DNA from: a virus
Taxonomy: Duplodnaviria > Heunggongvirae > Uroviricota > Caudoviricetes
Length of the DNA: 56,223 nucleotides
Strand: one strand, 5' to 3'
IMG/VR virus record: IMGVR_UViG_3300011008_000036
Coordinates: 625 to 56,847 of that record
Part shown: positions 4,684-11,868 of the stretch, piece after piece
Position numbering within the stretch: the stretch's first letter is position 1
How the letters are laid out: each line of letters begins with the position of its first letter
The notes under the pieces: generated by a model
What the model was told of the DNA's origin: nothing
The model's database searches: none
The model's input: the letters and a program-made list of their open reading frames with translations, nothing else
Program-made: the position numbers and the translations under genes

Positions 4684-6017
4684 ATGAAAAAATCATATAT
4701 AGAATTAATTTGTGATAAATGTTTGAAAAAATATCAAATTAGAAAAAGTAGTTATTACAGAAGAAAACAATTTAATCGTCCAAATTTATGTAATGATTGT
4801 ATGCATAAATACGTTGGAAATAGAAATAAAGAAGTGTGGCAAAACAAATCATCTGAAGAAAAAATATATCATGCTAAACAGTCAAGTGAAATAAATAAAA
4901 AACGATTTGCTAACAAATCACCAGAAGAACAACAACTGCAAATTTATAAATTACAAAAGGGATATGCTGATTATATTAATAATCTAACTTCTGAGGAAAA
5001 AGATAAACTTTCAGAAAAGCATCGTGAAGTTTGGAATAAGAAAACAGAATTGGAGAAAGAAGAATTTATCAAAAAGCAACAAGAAATTTGGAATAATAAA
5101 ACTCTTGCTGAACAAATGAAATGTATATCTAGACTTCATAGTGGTCATAAACATTATATTGAAACTAGAACTGAGGAACAAAGAATTCTTCATAATAATA
5201 AAATAAGTAAAGGTGTAAAGAAAGCTTGGGATAGTATGGATATTAATGAAAGAAAAATTTTAATAACCCGAGCTATAGAAAATCTTAATAATTTCAGAAA
5301 AAATGAATCTGCTAATAATAAGAAAGAGCGATATATAAAAAATAGTATTAAATGTCGTGAAAATATTAAAAATATGACATATAATGAAAGAGTTAAAAAT
5401 AATTTAAATACTATTTATATAAAAAATAAAAATGCTATAATAAATACTCAAATTATTATTACAAATCATTTGGATAAAATGAAATATGATAATGAAAGAG
5501 AATTTATGAGAGTATTAATAATTAATGATATTGAATTCATATATCAATGGTATAATATATATGAACATCCAAAATTTAAAGAATTATTTCCAAATAATAT
5601 TATTACTGGATATAATTATGTATCACCATTTCATAGATGGGATTTTAAAATATTAACAAATAAATGTGATGATATAATTATGTATCACCATTTCATAGAT
5701 GGGATTTTAAAATATTAACAAATAAATGTGATATATTTATAGATATCGATGGAAGTATACATGATGAATCACAAAATAATTATTACAGAACATTACCTTC
5801 AGGAAATAAAATATTAATGAAAGATCTTATATCATTTTATGATTCTCAACGTAAATATCAAACTGATAATTCTCCTGCATATATCATTCAATGTTACAAT
5901 GATAAATTAACTTTAGATGATAAAGTTATAAATATTTATAATGATAATAATATAATGAGTTTGAAAGAATTTATTAACATAATAAAAGAATATGATAATT
6001 GTTTAAAAAATATTTAA
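4684..6017 (+). pseudogene. Zn-ribbon + helical repeats + EDxHD-like endonuclease, frameshifted by a 62-nt tandem duplication
   Basis: Duplication at 5609-5670/5671-5732; removing one copy joins ORFs 4684-5718 and 5817-6017 into 423 aa with DIFIDIDGSIH; paralog of 1331-2253. Confidence 0.8.
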
Positions 6018-6927: not shown

Positions 6928-7197
6928 ATGACTAAAAGAAAAAATTTTGATTTTACGTATCATTGTTTGAATTGTGGCAAAGAATATCGAACCAATAAAA
7001 TTTTTCCATATGGTTGGATATGTTCAAAATGCATACATGATATAAAAATAAATAAAAATAATATATTGGGATATTTTGTATCCCAATATATTATTTTTTT
7101 CTATAAAAATGTATATGTATTTGAATTAGTATATTCTTTCAATTTCTTTTTAGAATTATATCCAGAAGCCCATAACATATTTTCAATAAATGGATAA
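6928..7197 (+). CDS. Small CxxC-CxxC zinc-finger protein
   Basis: CLNC...CSKC; SD-like AAGGGA; the 3' end overlaps the convergent gene by 97 nt. Confidence 0.5.
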   Translation: MTKRKNFDFTYHCLNCGKEYRTNKIFPYGWICSKCIHDIKINKNNILGYFVSQYIIFFYKNVYVFELVYSFNFFLELYPEAHNIFSING

Positions 7198-7685: not shown

Positions 7686-7720
7686 AATTTTATAGAATCG
7701 TTGAATTATAATGATATATT
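7686..7720. repeat. 35-nt intergenic repeat, copy 2
   Basis: 34/35 identical to 6832-6866. Confidence 0.8.
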
Positions 7721-7852: not shown

Positions 7853-8146
7853 ATGGAAAATATGAATATTGGCGCAATGTTAAAAATGGAATGGTTAATC
7901 GATAATAATGCTCAACTTCCAGAAGGAACAACTGAAGTTATTTGTTCAAGTTGTGGAATGAGATTTGCTGTTCCTACTGATGCATATAAACTTTTAGTTG
8001 GAGTATCAGATGGAGCTAATCTTAATTTTATTTGTGAAGATTGTGTATTACAAGAAGAAGGAGCTGAATTTGATGATGAACCATTGGATGATGAATTATA
8101 TTCTGAAGATCCAAATGATCTAATTAATGAAGCTCTTGGGAATTAA
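7853..8146 (+). CDS. Small acidic zinc-finger protein (paralog family member 1)
   Basis: CSSC...CEDC, acidic tail, ends INEALGN. Confidence 0.8.
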   Translation: MENMNIGAMLKMEWLIDNNAQLPEGTTEVICSSCGMRFAVPTDAYKLLVGVSDGANLNFICEDCVLQEEGAEFDDEPLDDELYSEDPNDLINEALGN

Positions 8147-8237: not shown

Positions 8238-8695
8238 TAGACATCTTTCAGCAAATTTTAAATGATCACAATATATGCGGGTCTAAGTATGTCTAGATAA
8301 TATTATATTATTCCATAAATTAAATGTGTCATGTAATTATAAGATACAACCAGCAAGAACATAATATATTTACGTCAACATATTTTGATATCAAATATTT
8401 GTATCTTGTTATTTAAAGACTCTTTCAGCAATATATTTAAGATTGTATAATTTTGTGCTTATACGTAAAAAACGGAGTCTTGAATTATTTTAAAGATTCA
8501 TTACAGCAAATATTTCAAATGGTTAACTATATTAGAATATTTTAAATTGAATCTTGTTTTAATAATTAAACTATTACTAATGATACTAAACAGCAAAATT
8601 ATTTATGATTATATAATTTATTTTAATTATAAATCTGAAAGATACAACCAGCAAGAACATAATATATTTTCGATTGATGAAACAAATGTATCTTG
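8238..8695 (+). repeat. Array of six stem-loop units with a conserved CAGCAA motif (candidate ncRNA array)
   Basis: Units at 8238-8296, 8341-8408, 8416-8482, 8493-8556, about 8580-8637 (degenerate) and 8639-8695; closing stems of 7-8 bp that covary between units. Confidence 0.75.
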
Positions 8696-8714: not shown

Positions 8715-8788
8715 TGGCAGTTAGTTCAAAGGCAGAACAGTGGACTGTTAATCCATCAATACTGGTTCGAGTCCAGTACTGCCAGCCA
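8715..8788 (+). tRNA. trnN: tRNA-Asn(GTT)
   Basis: Acceptor stem TGGCAGT/ACTGCCA, anticodon loop CT-GTT-AA, T-loop GGTTCGAGTCC, discriminator G, encoded CCA. Confidence 0.95.
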
Positions 8789-8799
8789 ATTTTAATTTT

Positions 8800-8894
8800 G
8801 GATAAGTGGCTGAGTGGTCGATAGCGGCTTCCTGCTAAGGAGTTGATCTGATATTTATTCAGATCCATAAGTTCGAATCTTATCTTATCCGCCA
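8800..8894 (+). tRNA. trnS: tRNA-Ser(GCT)
   Basis: Acceptor stem GGATAAG/CTTATCC, anticodon loop CT-GCT-AA, long variable arm, T-loop GTTCGAAT, encoded CCA. Confidence 0.93.
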
Positions 8895-8930: not shown

Positions 8931-9287
8931 ATGATATTTATACCAATGAAATATCATAGTATCTACTATGATGAATGTGATAAAAATTCAACAATTATTG
9001 TTTGTAATAAATGTAAAAGATCATTTTACGTTCCAAGAGAGATTGTTGATAATTTAATTAAAGTAAAATTTTCTAAATCTTCTGAACCTGAAATAATTTG
9101 TGAAAATTGTGCTACAGAATTAGAAAATAATGGAAAATTAAAAATAACTAAGAAATCATCTTCTAATGAAATTGAAACTACACTTGATTTATTAAGTGAC
9201 AATTTAGATGATCTGTGTGAATCGTTCCAAGAAATTTCTGAAACATTTGAAGAAATGTCATTAATTATTAAAGAAAATCTTGGATAG
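8931..9287 (+). CDS. Small zinc-finger protein (paralog family member 2)
   Basis: CNKC...CENC, ends IIKENLG. Confidence 0.75.
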   Translation: MIFIPMKYHSIYYDECDKNSTIIVCNKCKRSFYVPREIVDNLIKVKFSKSSEPEIICENCATELENNGKLKITKKSSSNEIETTLDLLSDNLDDLCESFQEISETFEEMSLIIKENLG

Positions 9288-9339: not shown

Positions 9340-9380
9340 AAAATATATAGATGAGCTTTTAAAGCTCATCTATATATTTT
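9340..9380. terminator. Terminator-like inverted repeat
   Basis: AAAATATATAGATGAGCT/AGCTCATCTATATATTTT. Confidence 0.65.
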
Positions 9381-9399: not shown

Positions 9400-10428
9400 T
9401 TGGAGGTTTTTAATGTGTCTGAAATTGAAAGTTTAAAAGAAATGATTATGCGTTCAGAAAAATATAAATTTATACATAATAAAAATATTTGTTTATTAAT
9501 ATTTGGGGGAAGTTGGGCATACGGGACAAATAATGAAAATTCTGATATTGATTTAAGAGGAATTATTTTAGAACAGCCAAACCAACTTATTGGTTTACAT
9601 TCATTTGAACAAACTATAGATTCCAATACAGATACAATTTTATATGGATTTAATAAAGCTATCCGATTATTCATAGATTGCAATCCTAACACTATTGAAA
9701 TGTTAGGTTGTGATTCTGATCACATTCTACATATGAATGAAATAGGAAGGGAATTGTATGATAATCGTAAATTATTTTTATCCAAAAGATGTATACGTAC
9801 ATTTGGTGGATATGCAAATCAACAGTTAAGAAGATTGAAGAATGCTTTGTTTGATAAAGTTAGTGAAGAAGAAAAAAATAATGATATAAATAAAACATTA
9901 AATTACCGTATAGATGAAATTGAAAATAAAATTAAATCTGTGTCGGGTAATATGAAATTAGTTTCTTCAACTTCAAGTCCATATACAAATGAACCTGATA
10001 TTTATCTTAGTGGAAATCTTGATTATTTTCCTGCACGAAATTTAAATGGAGTATTGAGCGAATTACATAGTATTATTAAAAGTTATGATAAATTAACTGG
10101 ACGAAACAAAAAGAAAGATGATGAACATTTACGAAAACATGCAATGCATTTATTTCGTTTATATTTTATGGCTTTTGATATACTTAAAAAACATGAAATA
10201 ATTACATATAGGAAAGATACCGATCCAATTTTATTGGATATTAGAAATGGAAAATTTTCAAAACATGATGGTACTTTCACAGATGATTTTTGGAATTTAC
10301 TAATAGAATTGGAAATACAATTAAAAACATTGTCAGAAACAACAACTTTACCAGATCATCCAAATTTTGATGAAATTGAAAAATTTGTTATGCGTATAAA
10401 TAAAAGAATCATTAACAACGATATTTAA
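9400..10428 (+). CDS. DNA pol-beta superfamily nucleotidyltransferase (RlaP-like); likely true start GTG at 9415
   Basis: GGSWAYG...SDIDLRG motif, NPNTIEML, helical C-terminal domain. Confidence 0.85.
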   Translation: MEVFNVSEIESLKEMIMRSEKYKFIHNKNICLLIFGGSWAYGTNNENSDIDLRGIILEQPNQLIGLHSFEQTIDSNTDTILYGFNKAIRLFIDCNPNTIEMLGCDSDHILHMNEIGRELYDNRKLFLSKRCIRTFGGYANQQLRRLKNALFDKVSEEEKNNDINKTLNYRIDEIENKIKSVSGNMKLVSSTSSPYTNEPDIYLSGNLDYFPARNLNGVLSELHSIIKSYDKLTGRNKKKDDEHLRKHAMHLFRLYFMAFDILKKHEIITYRKDTDPILLDIRNGKFSKHDGTFTDDFWNLLIELEIQLKTLSETTTLPDHPNFDEIEKFVMRINKRIINNDI

Positions 10429-11868
10429 ATGAGGTGTAAATTTATGTATACAATTACAAAAACAATTAAAACCATCAATATGGAAGAAATTCCTGAAGCT
10501 GTGAAAAGATGTTTTAGATTATTTAAAGTTTATCAACATGAAACATATCTTGTTGGTGGAAGTGTTCGAGATATGTTACTTGAAAAAACACCTGAAGATT
10601 GGGATATTGCAGCAAATGCTTCAGTTGATGAAATTGTTAAAATTTGTCAAAATGTTTTTAAAACATCAGTGTATAAAACAAGATGGCAAACAGTAAGAAT
10701 TCAAGATGTTACTGAACCGAACATTTCCATTGAAATAACTCCATATAAATATGGAAATGATTTATATACTGATTTGTTACATCGAGATTTTACAATGAAT
10801 GCAATAGCTGTTGATGATAGTGGAAATTTCTATGATCCGTTTGGTGGAAGAGAAGATCTTGAGAATAGTCGTTTAAAATTTACTAATGGTGATATTATCG
10901 AACGAGTTAATGAAGATCCATTACGATTATTGAGAATGCTTCGATTCTTAAGAGAATTTCATCTTACACTCGATGCTGATTTAAAGAAAGTAAACCAACT
11001 ATATCCTTTATTGGATAATATTAAACCAGAAAGAATATTTCCAGAATTGTGTAAATTTTTATTGGTAAAAAGAAAAAATAAATTTGATGCTTTTCAGGAT
11101 ATAATTTGTTTCAAAGATATCATATGTGCAGCAGTTCCAGAATTAAAAGTATGTGAAGGATATAATGTTGGACTTTATCAAACACAGAGTGATGATTTGT
11201 ATAGAGTTATCATGAAGAATATCGATATTTATACGGGTGATGACATAATACTAAAACTAGCACTACTATTTCATGATGTTGCAAAACCTTATGTTGCAGA
11301 ACATCAGTTCTCGCAATGTGATAAAATTAATGAATATTTTAATCACAAATATCGTTCAGCCGACATGGCAAATTTACGATTATTGCAATTTAGATGTTCA
11401 AATAAAATAAGAAATTGTGTTGTTGAATTAATTAAATATCAAGATAATTTTGTGAAACCAAATAAAAAATCAATAAGAAAATTAATTCATAAATTAGGAA
11501 TTGATCAAGCTAAAAGATTAATACTTTTTCAAGATCTTATTACTCATTTTGGTGAGAATAATGTTTCATCAACTTTACTTGAGAAAACACATGATGCTAA
11601 ATTTATATTTTATGAATTAGAAGCTGATTATTATAATCATATTGGTGTGTTTAATATCAAAGATCTCAATATAAATGGTTATGATTTACTTAATATGGGA
11701 TTTAAAGAAAATCATCTTATTGGAGTAATTCTAAGACATATATTGAATGCTGTGTTAGAGGAAAAGATTGAAAACACATATGAGGATTGTGTAAATATGG
11801 CTAAATTGTTAAAGAATGTGTATGAAAAATCTGGTAAAATTCCATATCATGTTACATTTGAAAAGTAA
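10429..11868 (+). CDS. cca: CCA-adding tRNA nucleotidyltransferase with HD domain
   Basis: LVGGSVRD, DWDI, HRDFTMNA, EDPLRLLRMLRF, LFHDVAKP, C-terminal LNINGYDL. Confidence 0.9.
   Translation: MRCKFMYTITKTIKTINMEEIPEAVKRCFRLFKVYQHETYLVGGSVRDMLLEKTPEDWDIAANASVDEIVKICQNVFKTSVYKTRWQTVRIQDVTEPNISIEITPYKYGNDLYTDLLHRDFTMNAIAVDDSGNFYDPFGGREDLENSRLKFTNGDIIERVNEDPLRLLRMLRFLREFHLTLDADLKKVNQLYPLLDNIKPERIFPELCKFLLVKRKNKFDAFQDIICFKDIICAAVPELKVCEGYNVGLYQTQSDDLYRVIMKNIDIYTGDDIILKLALLFHDVAKPYVAEHQFSQCDKINEYFNHKYRSADMANLRLLQFRCSNKIRNCVVELIKYQDNFVKPNKKSIRKLIHKLGIDQAKRLILFQDLITHFGENNVSSTLLEKTHDAKFIFYELEADYYNHIGVFNIKDLNINGYDLLNMGFKENHLIGVILRHILNAVLEEKIENTYEDCVNMAKLLKNVYEKSGKIPYHVTFEK

What the first reader, a model, noticed from the sequence alone, without database searches (positions are those of the whole stretch)
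8238..8695. Tandem array of covarying stem-loops with an invariant CAGCAA, directly upstream of the tRNA genes
Six units of about 57-68 nt follow the pattern (A/T)AGA-N6-7-CAGCAA-variable AT-rich loop-closing stem-G. The stems change sequence but keep pairing: TAGACAT/ATGTCTA, AAGATACA/TGTATCTT, AAGACTC/GAGTCTT, AAGATTCA/TGAATCTT. Units 2 and 6 share 31 identical nt. Compensatory variation plus a fixed single-stranded motif points to a repeated functional RNA, probably co-transcribed with the tRNAs. The 7-8 bp stem plus a 3' G resembles a tRNA acceptor stem, so these could be processed tRNA-like decoys or protein-binding RNAs. It is not a CRISPR array and I cannot assign it to a known family.
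Basis: partly seen in the sequence, partly recalled or inferred. Interest (0 to 1): 0.8.

Follow-up and report, generated by a model that had tools for sequence, protein, structure and literature searches.

The report
Phage small-RNA array, Ro60-like partner
The six repeats are real small structured RNAs made with the phage's tRNAs. They belong to a widespread family absent from Rfam release 15 and from the papers I searched, found in many phages beside (here far from) a Ro60-shaped protein gene, and their conserved handle closely resembles the 'Class I' RNAs reported only from social amoebae.

Summary
Window 8238-8695 has five complete units and one degenerate unit. Each is a 7-bp covarying closing helix, about 3 nt (U-W-A), an invariant CAGCAA, an AU-rich loop, the 3' arm and an unpaired G. 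They lie 19 nt upstream of tRNA-Asn and tRNA-Ser, downstream of an early-promoter word.

Two related phages carry arrays at the same place: 13 CAGCAA elements, 12 of them complete units, in one, and at least 3 units in the other. No Rfam family reaches threshold.

The same genome encodes a DUF2828 protein 94 kb away. Its model matches only Ro60 structures among the significant PDB hits. In seven cultured phages, 26 units of identical geometry lie next to the DUF2828 homologue. A covariance model trained only on those units finds four of the five window units (E 2.5e-5 to 9e-4). An 838-kb control gave nothing significant.

Best reading (0.6): Y-RNA-like partner RNAs of the phage's Ro60-like protein, co-transcribed with tRNAs. 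No experiment shows binding or function.

The handle matches the Dictyostelium Class I RNA motif CCUUACAGCAA at 10 of 11 positions, with the same spacing, but scores below the Rfam threshold.

This scan has reported the same family on many other genomes. New here: minimal units, a long tandem array, and separation from the protein gene, next to RlaP and a CCA-adding enzyme.

The parts
7710..7720 (+). Exact copy of the phage's candidate early-promoter word AATGATATATT, the likely start of the transcription unit that holds the array
Evidence: exact match; sequence. In the relative L002 the same word sits about 37 nt upstream of its first unit.
7853..8146 (+). Small zinc-ribbon-like ORF (97 aa) between the promoter word and the array
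   Evidence: weak Zn-ribbon hits only. No terminator-like site lies between it and the array.
8238..8296 (+). Unit 1: UAGACAU / AUGUCUA helix, CUUU, CAGCAA, 3' G
   Evidence: Model R1 scores it 23.9 bits, E 0.015, and it was not in the training set.
8326..8337 (+). Conserved inter-unit word GTGTCATGTAAT, also present between units in L002 and, as CATGTAAT, in L139. Possible internal promoter or processing signal.
   Evidence: Function not tested.
8341..8408 (+). Unit 2: AAGAUAC / GUAUCUU helix, AAC, CAGCAA, 3' G
   Evidence: R1 42 bits. Independent model R2 27.5 bits, E 9e-4. Fold z-score -2.8.
8416..8482 (+). Unit 3: AAGACUC / GAGUCUU helix, UUU, CAGCAA, 3' G
   Evidence: R1 52.3 bits. R2 29.6 bits, E 2.8e-4.
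8493..8556 (+). Unit 4: AAGAUUCA / UGAAUCUU helix, UUA, CAGCAA, 3' G
   Evidence: R1 39 bits although not in the training set. R2 28.9 bits.
8580..8637 (+). Unit 5, degenerate: 5' arm AUGAUAC, UAAA, CAGCAA, but no closing 3' arm. Its first 17 nt match, apart from one inserted base in the linker, a complete unit in the relative L139 (239-287).
   Evidence: (17.2 bits, E 0.55).
8639..8695 (+). Unit 6: same 5' 31 nt and 3' arm as unit 2, with a different distal loop
   Evidence: R1 36.8 bits. R2 34.1 bits, E 2.5e-5.
8715..8788 (+). tRNA-Asn (GUU), CCA encoded, 19 nt after unit 6
8800..8894 (+). tRNA-Ser (GCU), CCA encoded
8931..9287 (+). Small ORF (118 aa) conserved downstream of the tRNAs in all relatives. 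It was used to find L138 and L139.
9340..9380 (+). Intrinsic-terminator-like hairpin, the probable end of the transcription unit
9415..10428 (+). RlaP-family nucleotidyltransferase (RNA-repair-associated)
   Evidence: (PF10127, 6e-17)
10429..11868 (+). CCA-adding enzyme / poly(A) polymerase family protein
   Evidence: (PF01743, PF13735)

Best explanation
The array encodes five working small RNAs of about 57-68 nt and one decayed copy.

They are transcribed on the + strand together with tRNA-Asn and tRNA-Ser, probably from the early promoter at 7710. They are probably cut out of that precursor by the enzymes that mature the tRNAs.

Each RNA is little more than a 'handle': a 7-bp helix joining its two ends, a single-stranded U-W-A-CAGCAA just inside the 5' arm, an unpaired G after the 3' arm, and a free-varying AU-rich loop.

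I read them as the Y-RNA-like partners of the phage's Ro60-shaped DUF2828 protein, encoded 94 kb away. By analogy with Ro60 and Y RNA, the ring protein would recognise the handle, and the variable part would set what else the particle touches. That part is a plain loop here and a tRNA-like module in one unit of a relative and in other phages. The particle would act on RNA damage or on a host defence early in infection.

Shown: the structure, its conservation, the strand, the family membership, and the co-occurrence with the gene.

Inferred: transcription and processing, binding to DUF2828, and function.
For: Structure
- Covarying 7-bp helix: 99.1% paired against 77.9% in shuffles (0 of 500), 23 double-sided changes.
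- 7 G-U against 0 A-C in the outer pairs.
- All motif copies are on the tRNA strand.

Conservation of place
- A syntenic relative (L002; its RlaP is 55% identical) has 13 CAGCAA elements directly upstream of tRNA-Asn, 12 of them complete units, with the promoter word just before the first unit.
- A third lineage (L139) has at least 3 units upstream of tRNA-Ser.

Specificity
- Model R1 finds only the array in the whole 120.8-kb record.
- It finds nothing in 838 kb of unrelated loci.

The protein
- The genome has a DUF2828 ORF (PF11443, 89 bits).
- Its AlphaFold model (pLDDT 93, pTM 0.92) has 13 PDB matches with E at or below 0.001. All 13 are Ro60/TROVE structures, E 4e-8 to 7e-5.

Co-occurrence
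- Homologues occur in 709 phage records.
- In Felix O1 and in Listeria, Campylobacter, Staphylococcus, Mycobacterium, Aeromonas and Klebsiella phages, 26 same-strand units lie within about 1.2 kb of that gene (most within 0.7 kb), abutting it or in the adjoining tRNA array. All have the geometry 7 bp + 3 nt + CAGCAA ... 7 bp + G. All 7 pairs covary.

Independent membership test
- Model R2, trained on those cultured-phage units only, hits four of the five complete window units at 27.5-34.1 bits. Nothing else in the window scores below E 0.7. The 838-kb control gave one hit, at E 0.27.

Literature
- Bas63 gp130, which the authors describe as Ro60-like by structure comparison, counters the Ppl defence. 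They guessed that some 'tRNA genes' next to it are Y RNAs (preprint 10.1101/2024.10.10.617714). Bas63 was not checked here: I did not confirm that gp130 is a DUF2828 homologue or that handle units lie beside it.
- Thermus phage phiLo Ro60 binds Y-like RNAs encoded next to its gene (PMC12135203).
Against: - Here the array is not beside the DUF2828 gene. It is 94 kb away, beside the tRNAs, RlaP and the CCA-adding enzyme, so the link in this genome is co-presence only.
- No binding, processing or expression data exist.
- The DUF2828 protein does not hit the TROVE Pfam model or any PDB sequence. Its likeness to Ro60 is by fold only, at TM about 0.5.
- The handle lacks the GNCGAA motif thought to be the Ro60 site of YrlA (PMC4201824).
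- The leader of the DUF2828 gene holds only a weak, variant handle (CAGCAG; 12.7 bits, E 0.26).
- I could not check that the L002 phage has the gene, because only 13 kb of its contig was held.
Confidence: 0.6

Rival explanations
1. The units are real small RNAs, but they work with the neighbouring RNA-repair enzymes (RlaP nucleotidyltransferase, CCA-adding enzyme) or with the tRNA-processing machinery, as substrates, sponges or decoys. DUF2828 would not be involved.
For: In this genome and in L002 the array always lies within 0.8 kb (0.72-0.80 kb) upstream of RlaP, with the CCA-enzyme gene directly after it, and abuts the tRNAs. The 7-bp helix followed by U at position 8 and an unpaired 3' G recalls an acceptor stem with a discriminator base. 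The DUF2828 gene is 94 kb away.
Against: - A phage contig with an RlaP-CCA-RtcB cassette (L135) has no units.
- In seven cultured phages the units follow DUF2828, not RlaP or a CCA enzyme.
- The window units have no T-arm-like coaxial partner for a CCA-adding enzyme or RNase P, and the helix extends to 8-10 bp in several units.
Confidence: 0.15
2. The units are cis-acting punctuation in a long tRNA precursor: structured spacers that protect the transcript from exonucleases or guide its cleavage, with no role as free RNAs.
For: Tight packing (spacers 7-19 nt), constant position at the 5' side of the tRNAs, and copy number that changes freely between relatives (6, 13, at least 4).
Against: A spacer hairpin would not need an invariant single-stranded 6-10-nt word at a fixed distance from the helix, kept from Mycobacterium to Campylobacter phages. 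In several phages the units lie up- or downstream of the DUF2828 ORF without tRNAs between (Staphylococcus, Mycobacterium, Aeromonas).
Confidence: 0.1
3. The repeats act as DNA: a cluster of promoters, protein-binding inverted repeats, recombination sites or a replication origin.
For: Inverted repeats with a conserved word could bind a dimeric DNA-binding protein. AT-rich loops contain -10-like hexamers in units 3 and 5. An origin often has repeated elements.
Against: - Promoter-like matches in the region are no more frequent than in shuffles (35 against 32.6).
- The phage's own promoter word does not recur in the units.
- G-T but never A-C mismatches and strict single-strand orientation point to RNA.
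- Arms change by compensatory pairs while the arm sequence itself is free.
- There is no GC-skew turn at the site.
Confidence: 0.03

Closest known systems
Bacterial and phage Y RNAs bound by Ro60/Rsr (YrlA/YrlB, Yrn1; Rfam RF02553; Chen et al. 2014, PMC4201824) and Yrl1/Yrl2 of Thermus phage phiLo (PMC12135203)
   Same: - Small RNAs whose 5' and 3' ends pair in a stem, with a conserved motif on the 5' strand next to a large variable loop.
- Several paralogues per genome, encoded with a ring-shaped Ro60-fold protein, often among tRNA or RNA-repair genes.
- Some members carry tRNA-like modules, as does one unit of L002.
   Different: - The protein is DUF2828/DUF7788, not Pfam TROVE.
- The motif is U-W-A-CAGCAA, not GNCGAA.
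- There is no Rfam YrlA hit in the window or the L002 array, nor, at gathering threshold, in seven cultured-phage and phage-contig loci around DUF2828 homologues.
- The window units are half the size of Y RNAs (57-68 against 80-130 nt) and lack a tRNA-like domain.
- The array is far from the protein gene.
Class I RNAs of dictyostelid social amoebae (Rfam RF01414; Kjellin et al. 2021, PMC7919456)
   Same: - Length about 60 nt, with a short covarying stem joining the ends.
- A conserved single-stranded word directly after the 5' arm. The phage consensus C-U-W-A-C-A-G-C-A-A matches positions 2-11 of CCUUACAGCAA. That covers the positions invariant in all dictyostelids: C6, C9, A10 and A11 in 20 of 20 phage units, and T3 in 15 of 20.
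- CAGCAA begins 10 nt after the first helix base in both.
- An AU-rich variable loop, a start of AAG or UAG, and a G after the helix.
- These were the only Rfam hits to fall on several units, although weak (21.4, 18.4 and 13.6 bits).
   Different: - All scores are far below the gathering threshold of 41.5, and below the 25 bits the authors used. No window unit scored at all.
- The stem is 7 bp, not 6, and the 3' end is helix-G, not C-U-G-U.
- The phage units form tandem arrays under a phage promoter. The amoeba genes are dispersed and driven by the DUSE element.
- The known direct binder in the amoeba is an RRM protein (CIBP/Rnp1A).
- The family was reported as unique to Dictyostelia.
Bas63 gp130 (Felix O1-type coliphage), reported as Ro60-like and as a counter to the Ppl defence (preprint 10.1101/2024.10.10.617714)
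   Same: A Ro60-like phage protein reported to sit at the head of a tRNA array. The authors guessed that some neighbouring 'tRNA genes' are Y RNAs. In Felix O1 itself, the related type phage, four handle units lie in the tRNA array next to its DUF2828 homologue.
   Different: No RNA partner was defined there. Bas63 was not examined here: whether gp130 is a DUF2828 homologue, and whether handle units lie beside it, was not checked. The protein alone, moved into T7, countered Ppl, so the RNAs may not be needed for that effect. Whether this jumbo phage meets Ppl is unknown.
Stable non-tRNA RNAs co-transcribed with the phage T4 tRNA cluster (species 1 and 2; from my own knowledge, not checked here)
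   Same: Small stable RNAs of unknown function made from the same precursor as phage tRNAs.
   Different: No sequence or structure comparison was made. The T4 RNAs are single-copy and larger. This is a recollection only.

Membership tests
CAGCAA-handle RNAs found beside DUF2828 genes (no published family; defined here by model R2 from seven cultured phages) | Closing helix of 7 bp joining the 5' and 3' ends, sequence free but pairing kept | tested here: met
   Window and relatives: 99.1% paired, 4 of 7 pairs covary. Cultured phages: 99.2% paired, 7 of 7 covary.
CAGCAA-handle RNAs found beside DUF2828 genes (no published family; defined here by model R2 from seven cultured phages) | Invariant CAGCAA starting 10 (rarely 11) nt after the first helix base, that is 3 nt after a 7-bp arm | tested here: met
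   18 of 20 units at 10 nt and 2 at 11 nt. 26 of 26 cultured-phage units at 10 nt.
CAGCAA-handle RNAs found beside DUF2828 genes (no published family; defined here by model R2 from seven cultured phages) | Unpaired G immediately 3' of the helix | tested here: met
   20 of 20 and 26 of 26.
CAGCAA-handle RNAs found beside DUF2828 genes (no published family; defined here by model R2 from seven cultured phages) | Significant score with a covariance model that holds no sequence of this phage lineage | tested here: met
   R2 scores four window units at 27.5-34.1 bits, E 2.5e-5 to 9e-4. Unit 1 and the degenerate unit 5 are not reported. The 838-kb control gave one hit at E 0.27.
CAGCAA-handle RNAs found beside DUF2828 genes (no published family; defined here by model R2 from seven cultured phages) | DUF2828 (Ro60-fold) gene in the same genome, usually within about 1 kb on the same strand | tested here: inconclusive
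   The gene is present at G000:103196-104776, and its fold matches Ro60. It lies 94 kb from the array, so presence is met and adjacency is not.
CAGCAA-handle RNAs found beside DUF2828 genes (no published family; defined here by model R2 from seven cultured phages) | Physical binding of the RNA to the protein | not testable with these tools
   No protein-RNA predictor or experiment was available.
Y RNA / YrlA (Rfam RF02553) | Match to the Rfam model at gathering score | tested here: not met
   No hit at gathering score or at E up to 10. None at gathering threshold in the cultured-phage loci either.
Y RNA / YrlA (Rfam RF02553) | GNCGAAN0-1G motif near the 5' end, the putative Ro60 site (PMC4201824) | tested here: not met
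   The 5' strand reads N-A-G-A-Y-N-C-U-W-A-CAGCAA in all units. No CGAA occurs there.
Y RNA / YrlA (Rfam RF02553) | tRNA-like domain (D and T arms) | tested here: not met
   None in the window units: ARAGORN and the tRNA model hit only the two true tRNAs. One L002 unit has a T-arm-like hairpin, but ARAGORN does not call it a tRNA.
Y RNA / YrlA (Rfam RF02553) | Partner protein with a TROVE domain | tested here: inconclusive
   Pfam TROVE gives no hit. The DUF2828 model's 13 significant PDB matches (E at or below 0.001) are all Ro60/TROVE structures.
Dictyostelium Class I RNA (Rfam RF01414) | Match to the Rfam model at gathering score (41.5 bits), or the authors' 25 bits | tested here: not met
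   Best scores are 21.4 and 18.4 bits in L002 and 13.6 bits in L139. None in the window.
Dictyostelium Class I RNA (Rfam RF01414) | 11-nt motif CCUUACAGCAA next to the 5' arm, with T3, C6, C9, A10 and A11 invariant | tested here: met
   The phage consensus C-U-W-A-C-A-G-C-A-A covers positions 2-11. C6, C9, A10 and A11 occur in 20 of 20 units, T3 in 15 of 20 and C2 in 19 of 20.
Dictyostelium Class I RNA (Rfam RF01414) | Short terminal stem with compensatory changes; total length about 60 nt | tested here: met
   7 bp (6 bp in the amoeba); median length 64.5 nt.
Dictyostelium Class I RNA (Rfam RF01414) | Conserved ends AAG ... CUGU | tested here: inconclusive
   The start is AAG or UAG in 18 of 20 units. 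The end is C-U-(U/A)-G, one base out of register with CUGU.
Dictyostelium Class I RNA (Rfam RF01414) | DUSE promoter element about 60 nt upstream; dispersed genes; occurrence in Dictyostelia | tested here: not met
   Here there are tandem arrays behind a phage promoter word in a bacteriophage with Shine-Dalgarno sites and bacterial-type tRNAs.
tRNA or tRNA pseudogene | Cloverleaf with D and T arms; detection by ARAGORN or Rfam RF00005 | tested here: not met
   Only 8715-8788 and 8800-8894 are detected.
CRISPR array or type III antitoxin repeat array | Near-identical direct repeats of fixed period | tested here: not met
   No direct-repeat family and no tandem repeat covers the units. The units differ in sequence and keep only the handle.

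The most novel reading that the evidence does not exclude
The phage handle RNAs and the dictyostelid Class I RNAs may be one RNA family, either by descent or transfer, or by convergence on the same kind of partner. In that case Class I RNAs, now an orphan class tied to amoebal multicellularity, would be Y-RNA-like partners of a Ro60-fold DUF2828-type protein. The uncharacterised DdR-21 pull-down protein DDB_G0281243 is the obvious candidate to check. The minimal units of this jumbo phage would be the closest bacterial-virus counterpart of the amoebal form.
Probability: 0.2. Interest if true: 0.85.

Novelty: new variant of a known kind. Interest (0 to 1): 0.62.

Why it matters
Ro60 and its Y RNAs are a classic RNA-quality-control particle and a human autoantigen. 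In bacteria they are tied to RNA repair.

This locus adds to evidence that a second, far more widespread Ro60-shaped protein family has its own partner RNAs, which are in no database. The family is DUF2828, with 709 phage records and thousands of metagenomic clusters here. Those RNAs have a very simple, recognisable handle.

That would give annotators a new RNA class to call in phage tRNA regions, where such elements are now left blank or mis-called. It would give people working on phage counter-defence (Bas63 gp130 against Ppl) a concrete RNA to test.

This instance is useful for three reasons:
- Its units are stripped to the bare handle.
- The array is uncoupled from the protein gene and tied instead to the tRNAs, RlaP and a CCA-adding enzyme.
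- A close relative has doubled the array.

If the likeness to Dictyostelium Class I RNAs is more than chance, it would give a 20-year-old orphan RNA class a testable mechanism.

Tried and rejected
- Rfam at gathering and at E up to 10 on the window, L002, L139 and seven loci around DUF2828 homologues (six cultured phages and one gut phage contig): only tRNAs pass. YrlA never appears. Class I appears only below threshold.
- Nucleotide search of GenBank phages with the region: no match.
- Searches of IMG/VR for the 25-mer shared by units 2 and 6, for a two-unit pattern, for the conserved inter-unit 16-mer and for the lineage's tRNA-Asn word: nothing, or chance hits only. The tRNA word was also absent from the JGI metagenomes. 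The relatives came from ENA and Logan assemblies through protein look-ups instead.
- Relatives of the CCA-adding enzyme in viral contigs: none.
- A long-range helix between GTGTCAT (8326) and the orphan 5' arm of unit 5: dropped. L139 has a normally closed copy of that unit and lacks the GTGT.
- Sigma-70-type promoters inside the loops: no enrichment over shuffles.
- Unit 6 as a chimera of unit 2 and the lost half of unit 5: the alignments are too AT-rich to decide.
- Single-unit folding energies are mostly unremarkable (z from -0.5 to -2.8). The evidence for structure is covariation, not stability.
- The handle-like element in the DUF2828 leader is weak (12.7 bits, E 0.26). The relative's leader keeps the stem but not the motif. 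It is recorded as noticed, not used as evidence.
- Avesson et al. 2011 is not held, so the identity of DDB_G0281243 could not be checked.
- Complex prediction was not used, because it does not take RNA.
Full report
**What is there**

The window is part of a 120.8-kb, 25% G+C viral record, estimated 45% complete. Earlier notes of this scan class it as an AR9/phiKZ-type jumbo phage.

Between a small zinc-ribbon-like ORF (7853-8146) and tRNA-Asn (8715-8788) lies 570 nt without a credible ORF. In it CAGCAA occurs six times, all on the + strand. The whole window has 40 copies on both strands, where shuffles give 15.

Five of the six copies sit in complete units: 8238-8296, 8341-8408, 8416-8482, 8493-8556 and 8639-8695. 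The sixth (about 8580-8637) keeps the 5' arm and the motif but has no closing arm. Units 2 and 6 do share their first 31 nt.

**Anatomy**

I curated 20 complete units from this phage and two relatives. They all follow one plan:
- a 7-bp helix, N-A-G-A-Y-N-C paired to G-N-R-U-C-U-N;
- three bases, mostly U-W-A;
- CAGCAA, beginning 10 nt (twice 11 nt) after the first helix base;
- 24-108 nt of AU-rich sequence with no shared structure;
- the 3' arm;
- an unpaired G in 20 of 20 units.

The median length is 64.5 nt.

On a 16-unit alignment, 99.1% of helix cells are standard pairs, against 77.9% when the partners are shuffled (0 of 500). Twenty-three cells changed on both sides, and four of seven pairs covary. 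Sliding the 3' partner by one to three columns drops pairing to 16-48%. The outer eight helix positions hold seven G-U and no A-C. That is what selection on a + strand RNA predicts and selection on duplex DNA does not.

Folding energies of single units are mostly ordinary. The case for structure rests on covariation.

**Transcription context (inferred, not shown)**

An exact copy of the candidate early-promoter word AATGATATATT lies at 7710. An earlier follow-up in this genome read this word as the virion-RNA-polymerase promoter.

No terminator-like site comes before 9340-9380, which is beyond the tRNAs and a 118-aa ORF. Spacers between units are mostly 7-19 nt, and the last unit ends 19 nt before tRNA-Asn.

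So the units are most simply parts of one early precursor with the tRNAs.

**Relatives**

The region has no nucleotide match in GenBank phages, and several word searches of IMG/VR and JGI metagenomes gave only chance hits. Protein look-ups found the kin:
- L005 is an identical copy from another sample.
- L002 is a 216-kb contig with the same gene order, and its RlaP is 55% identical. Its 1.2-kb gap directly upstream of tRNA-Asn, tRNA-Ile and tRNA-Met holds 13 CAGCAA elements, 12 of them complete units. The promoter word lies about 37 nt before the first unit.
- L139 is a third lineage, with at least three units upstream of tRNA-Ser.

Stems differ between and within the phages: UAGA.../...UCUA, AAGA.../...UCUU, ACGA.../...UCGU, and GAGG.../...UCUC with a G-U pair. 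The handle stays the same.

One L002 unit (4873-5005) carries a 108-nt loop with a T-arm-like hairpin (loop UUCAAAU) and a D-arm-like hairpin. ARAGORN does not call it a tRNA.

A covariance model of 16 units (R1) finds the two window units left out of its training set, at 39 and 23.9 bits. It finds nothing else significant in the whole 120.8-kb record. It finds nothing in 838 kb of unrelated viral and metagenomic loci, even though most of those had been picked for a loose version of the motif.

**What it is not**

Rfam 15 gives only the two tRNAs at gathering score. At E up to 10 it gives nothing on the array.

The units are not tRNAs, not direct repeats of a CRISPR or antitoxin type, and not enriched in sigma-70-like promoters.

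**The protein link**

A note from an earlier window of this genome mentioned a Ro60-like gene, so I checked it myself.
- The record has a 526-aa ORF at G000:103196-104776 that passes the Pfam DUF2828 cut-off (89 bits).
- It does not match Pfam TROVE or any PDB sequence.
- With 69 homologues from a library-wide search (6,212 clusters at E up to 0.001), AlphaFold gives a confident model (pLDDT 93.1, pTM 0.92).
- The model has 13 PDB matches with E at or below 0.001. All 13 are Ro60/TROVE structures, at E 4e-8 to 7e-5 and TM about 0.5 over the full length: Thermus phage phiLo, Xenopus, human and Deinococcus. The next matches are isolated vWA domains.

So it has a Ro60-like fold, a helical ring plus vWA, in a different sequence family.

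**Does the RNA travel with that protein?**

The protein has homologues in 709 GenBank phage records. I took nine of them and looked around the gene.
- Seven carry units on the gene's strand: Felix O1, Listeria phage 805405-1, Campylobacter F352, Staphylococcus S-CoN_Ph9, Mycobacterium Whirlwind, Aeromonas LAh_9 and Klebsiella KP13-26. The units abut the gene or lie in the tRNA array next to it, within about 1.2 kb and mostly within 0.7 kb.
- There are 26 units, every one with 7 bp + 3 nt + CAGCAA ... 7 bp + G.
- Vibrio phi-ST2 and Prevotella Lak-B3 each have one doubtful short element at the gene start.
- Across 19 of the units, all seven pairs covary and 99.2% of cells pair.
- None of them is an Rfam family at gathering threshold.

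A second model (R2), built from those cultured-phage units alone, recovers four of the five complete window units (34.1, 29.6, 28.9 and 27.5 bits; E 2.5e-5 to 9e-4). It also recovers eleven units of L002 and L139 at E below 0.02, plus four weaker matches there. Nothing else in the window falls below E 0.7. The 838-kb control gives a single hit at E 0.27. That is an unbiased membership test, and it is met.

**How it most likely works**

Ro60 proteins bind Y RNAs through a stem formed by the RNA's two ends and a conserved 5'-strand motif. The rest of the RNA tethers other factors or gates the ring (PMC4201824, PMC12135203).

The handle here has the same logic with different letters. I therefore read the units as the partner RNAs of the DUF2828 protein, made early with the tRNAs.

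The window's units are the bare handle. One L002 unit and, by earlier notes, many units in other phages graft a tRNA-like module onto it.

The only functional datum for what may be the same protein family is a preprint. In it Bas63 gp130, which the authors show to be structurally similar to Ro60, counters the Ppl defence. The authors guess that some neighbouring 'tRNA genes' are Y RNAs (10.1101/2024.10.10.617714). I did not examine Bas63, so its membership of DUF2828 is assumed from its Felix O1-type kinship.

Binding, processing and function are all inferred. I put the partner-RNA reading at 0.6.

**What is unusual here**

In this phage the array is 94 kb from the protein gene. It stays instead with the tRNAs, directly upstream of an RlaP-family nucleotidyltransferase and a CCA-adding enzyme. 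The rival reading, that the RNAs serve or distract these repair enzymes, is therefore alive (0.15).

Against that rival, a phage contig with an RlaP-CCA-RtcB cassette has no units, and elsewhere the units follow DUF2828.

The DUF2828 leader itself holds a weak variant handle (GAGACAU-UGA-CAGCAG ... AUGUCUAG, 26 nt before the start codon; 12.7 bits, E 0.26). In the relative L149 the leader keeps an AAGACA/UGUCUU-G stem but not the motif. This hints at autoregulation but is not evidence.

**The Class I resemblance**

The only Rfam family to fall on several units, always below threshold, was RF01414, the Class I RNAs of Dictyostelium: 21.4 and 18.4 bits in L002 and 13.6 bits in L139. No window unit scored.

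Points of likeness:
- The printed consensus, G-a-U-c-u-C-CUUACAGCAA ... G-a-g-A-u-C-UG, has CAGCAA starting 10 nt after the first helix base, as in the phage.
- The phage consensus C-U-W-A-CAGCAA equals positions 2-11 of the 11-nt amoebal motif. Of the positions Kjellin et al. report as invariant in all dictyostelids, C6, C9, A10 and A11 hold in all 20 units and T3 in 15 of 20.
- Those RNAs are also about 60 nt long, with a short covarying terminal stem and conserved ends AAG ... CUGU (PMC7919456).

Points of difference: membership by score fails, the ends are one base out of register, the gene organisation is entirely different, and the known amoebal binder is an RRM protein.

I treat it as a striking likeness of design. 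I give 0.2 to the idea that the two are one family, by descent or through the same type of partner. One of the four DdR-21 pull-down proteins, DDB_G0281243, is uncharacterised. I could not find what it is.

**Relation to earlier work in this scan**

After I had reached the Class I lead, a word search of the scan's notes showed that other follow-ups had reported the same 'stem plus CAGCAA' family beside DUF2828 genes. A CAGCAA-specific word search returned 36 findings in at least 36 genomes (a looser search returned 173), and several of the notes shown report the same Class I likeness. One later check rated the bold reading at 6 in 100.

Those are unverified notes. The tests above are my own and agree with them. 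I found no published description of the RNA family in the papers searched.

**Verdict**

This is a real, conserved small-RNA array. It is a member of a widespread, uncatalogued handle-RNA family that goes with Ro60-fold DUF2828 proteins. It is a new variant of the Ro60/Y-RNA kind of system, here in its most minimal and most amplified form, and unlinked from the protein gene.

Noticed in passing
window 8326-8337; L002 4555-4568; L139 217-228: A word (GTGT)CATGTA(A/G)(T/A)T is kept between units in all three phage lineages, each time a short way upstream of a unit. It could be an internal promoter for one of the phage RNA polymerases, or a processing signal.
   Followed up: partly
G000:103122-103170 (L140:1001-1049), 26 nt upstream of the DUF2828 start codon; outside the window: A handle-like element with the variant motif CAGCAG and the same AGACAU/AUGUCU arms as unit 1. 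It is the best full-length R1 hit in that 3.5-kb stretch, but weak (12.7 bits, E 0.26). The relative L149 keeps an AAGACA...UGUCUUG stem before its Shine-Dalgarno site without the motif. This may be a site for autoregulation of the Ro60-like gene.
   Followed up: partly
L002:4873-5005: One unit of the relative's array has a 108-nt loop containing a T-arm-like hairpin (7 bp, loop UUCAAAU) and a D-arm-like hairpin. ARAGORN and the Rfam tRNA model do not call it a tRNA. It looks like a tRNA-like module grafted onto the handle.
   Followed up: partly
window 8580-8637 and L002:4828-4872: Both phages keep an 'open' unit with a 5' arm AAUGA(U/C)AC plus the motif and no 3' arm. L139:239-287 has the closed version. 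The open copies may be decayed, or may pair elsewhere.
   Followed up: partly
window 9415-11868; L135:6995-10465: RlaP and a CCA-adding enzyme are adjacent here and in L002. In an unrelated 67-kb phage contig (50% G+C) the same pair is followed by RtcB, giving a three-gene RNA-repair cassette next to a terminase gene.
   Followed up: no
L140:212-913 and L149:913-1740: An ORF directly upstream of the DUF2828 gene is a Band_7/SPFH protein in the relative L149. The same pairing is annotated in Mycobacterium phage Whirlwind and Aeromonas phage LAh_9.
   Followed up: no
window 7055-7097: A 20-bp perfect palindromic hairpin that scores as a terminator on both strands, between convergent or divergent genes upstream of the array's transcription unit.
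   Followed up: no
window 8715-8788; L002:5215-5288; L138:43-116: The lineage's tRNA-Asn has an unusual D region (UAGUUCAAAGGCAGAAC) that is identical in the window and L002 (L138 was not compared). The 31-base word spanning its D arm and anticodon stem-loop is absent from JGI metagenomes and IMG/VR. The set of tRNAs that follow it differs: Ser in the window and L139; Ile-UAU and Met in L002 and L138.
   Followed up: no
L144:6852-8063 (Listeria phage 805405-1): In the Listeria phage the DUF2828 gene and its three handle units lie 1.3 kb upstream of an annotated RtcB-type RNA ligase. In Aeromonas LAh_9 an RNA ligase 2 lies 3.7 kb downstream. The repeated link to RNA-repair genes fits the Rsr-RtcB theme known from Salmonella.
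   Followed up: no
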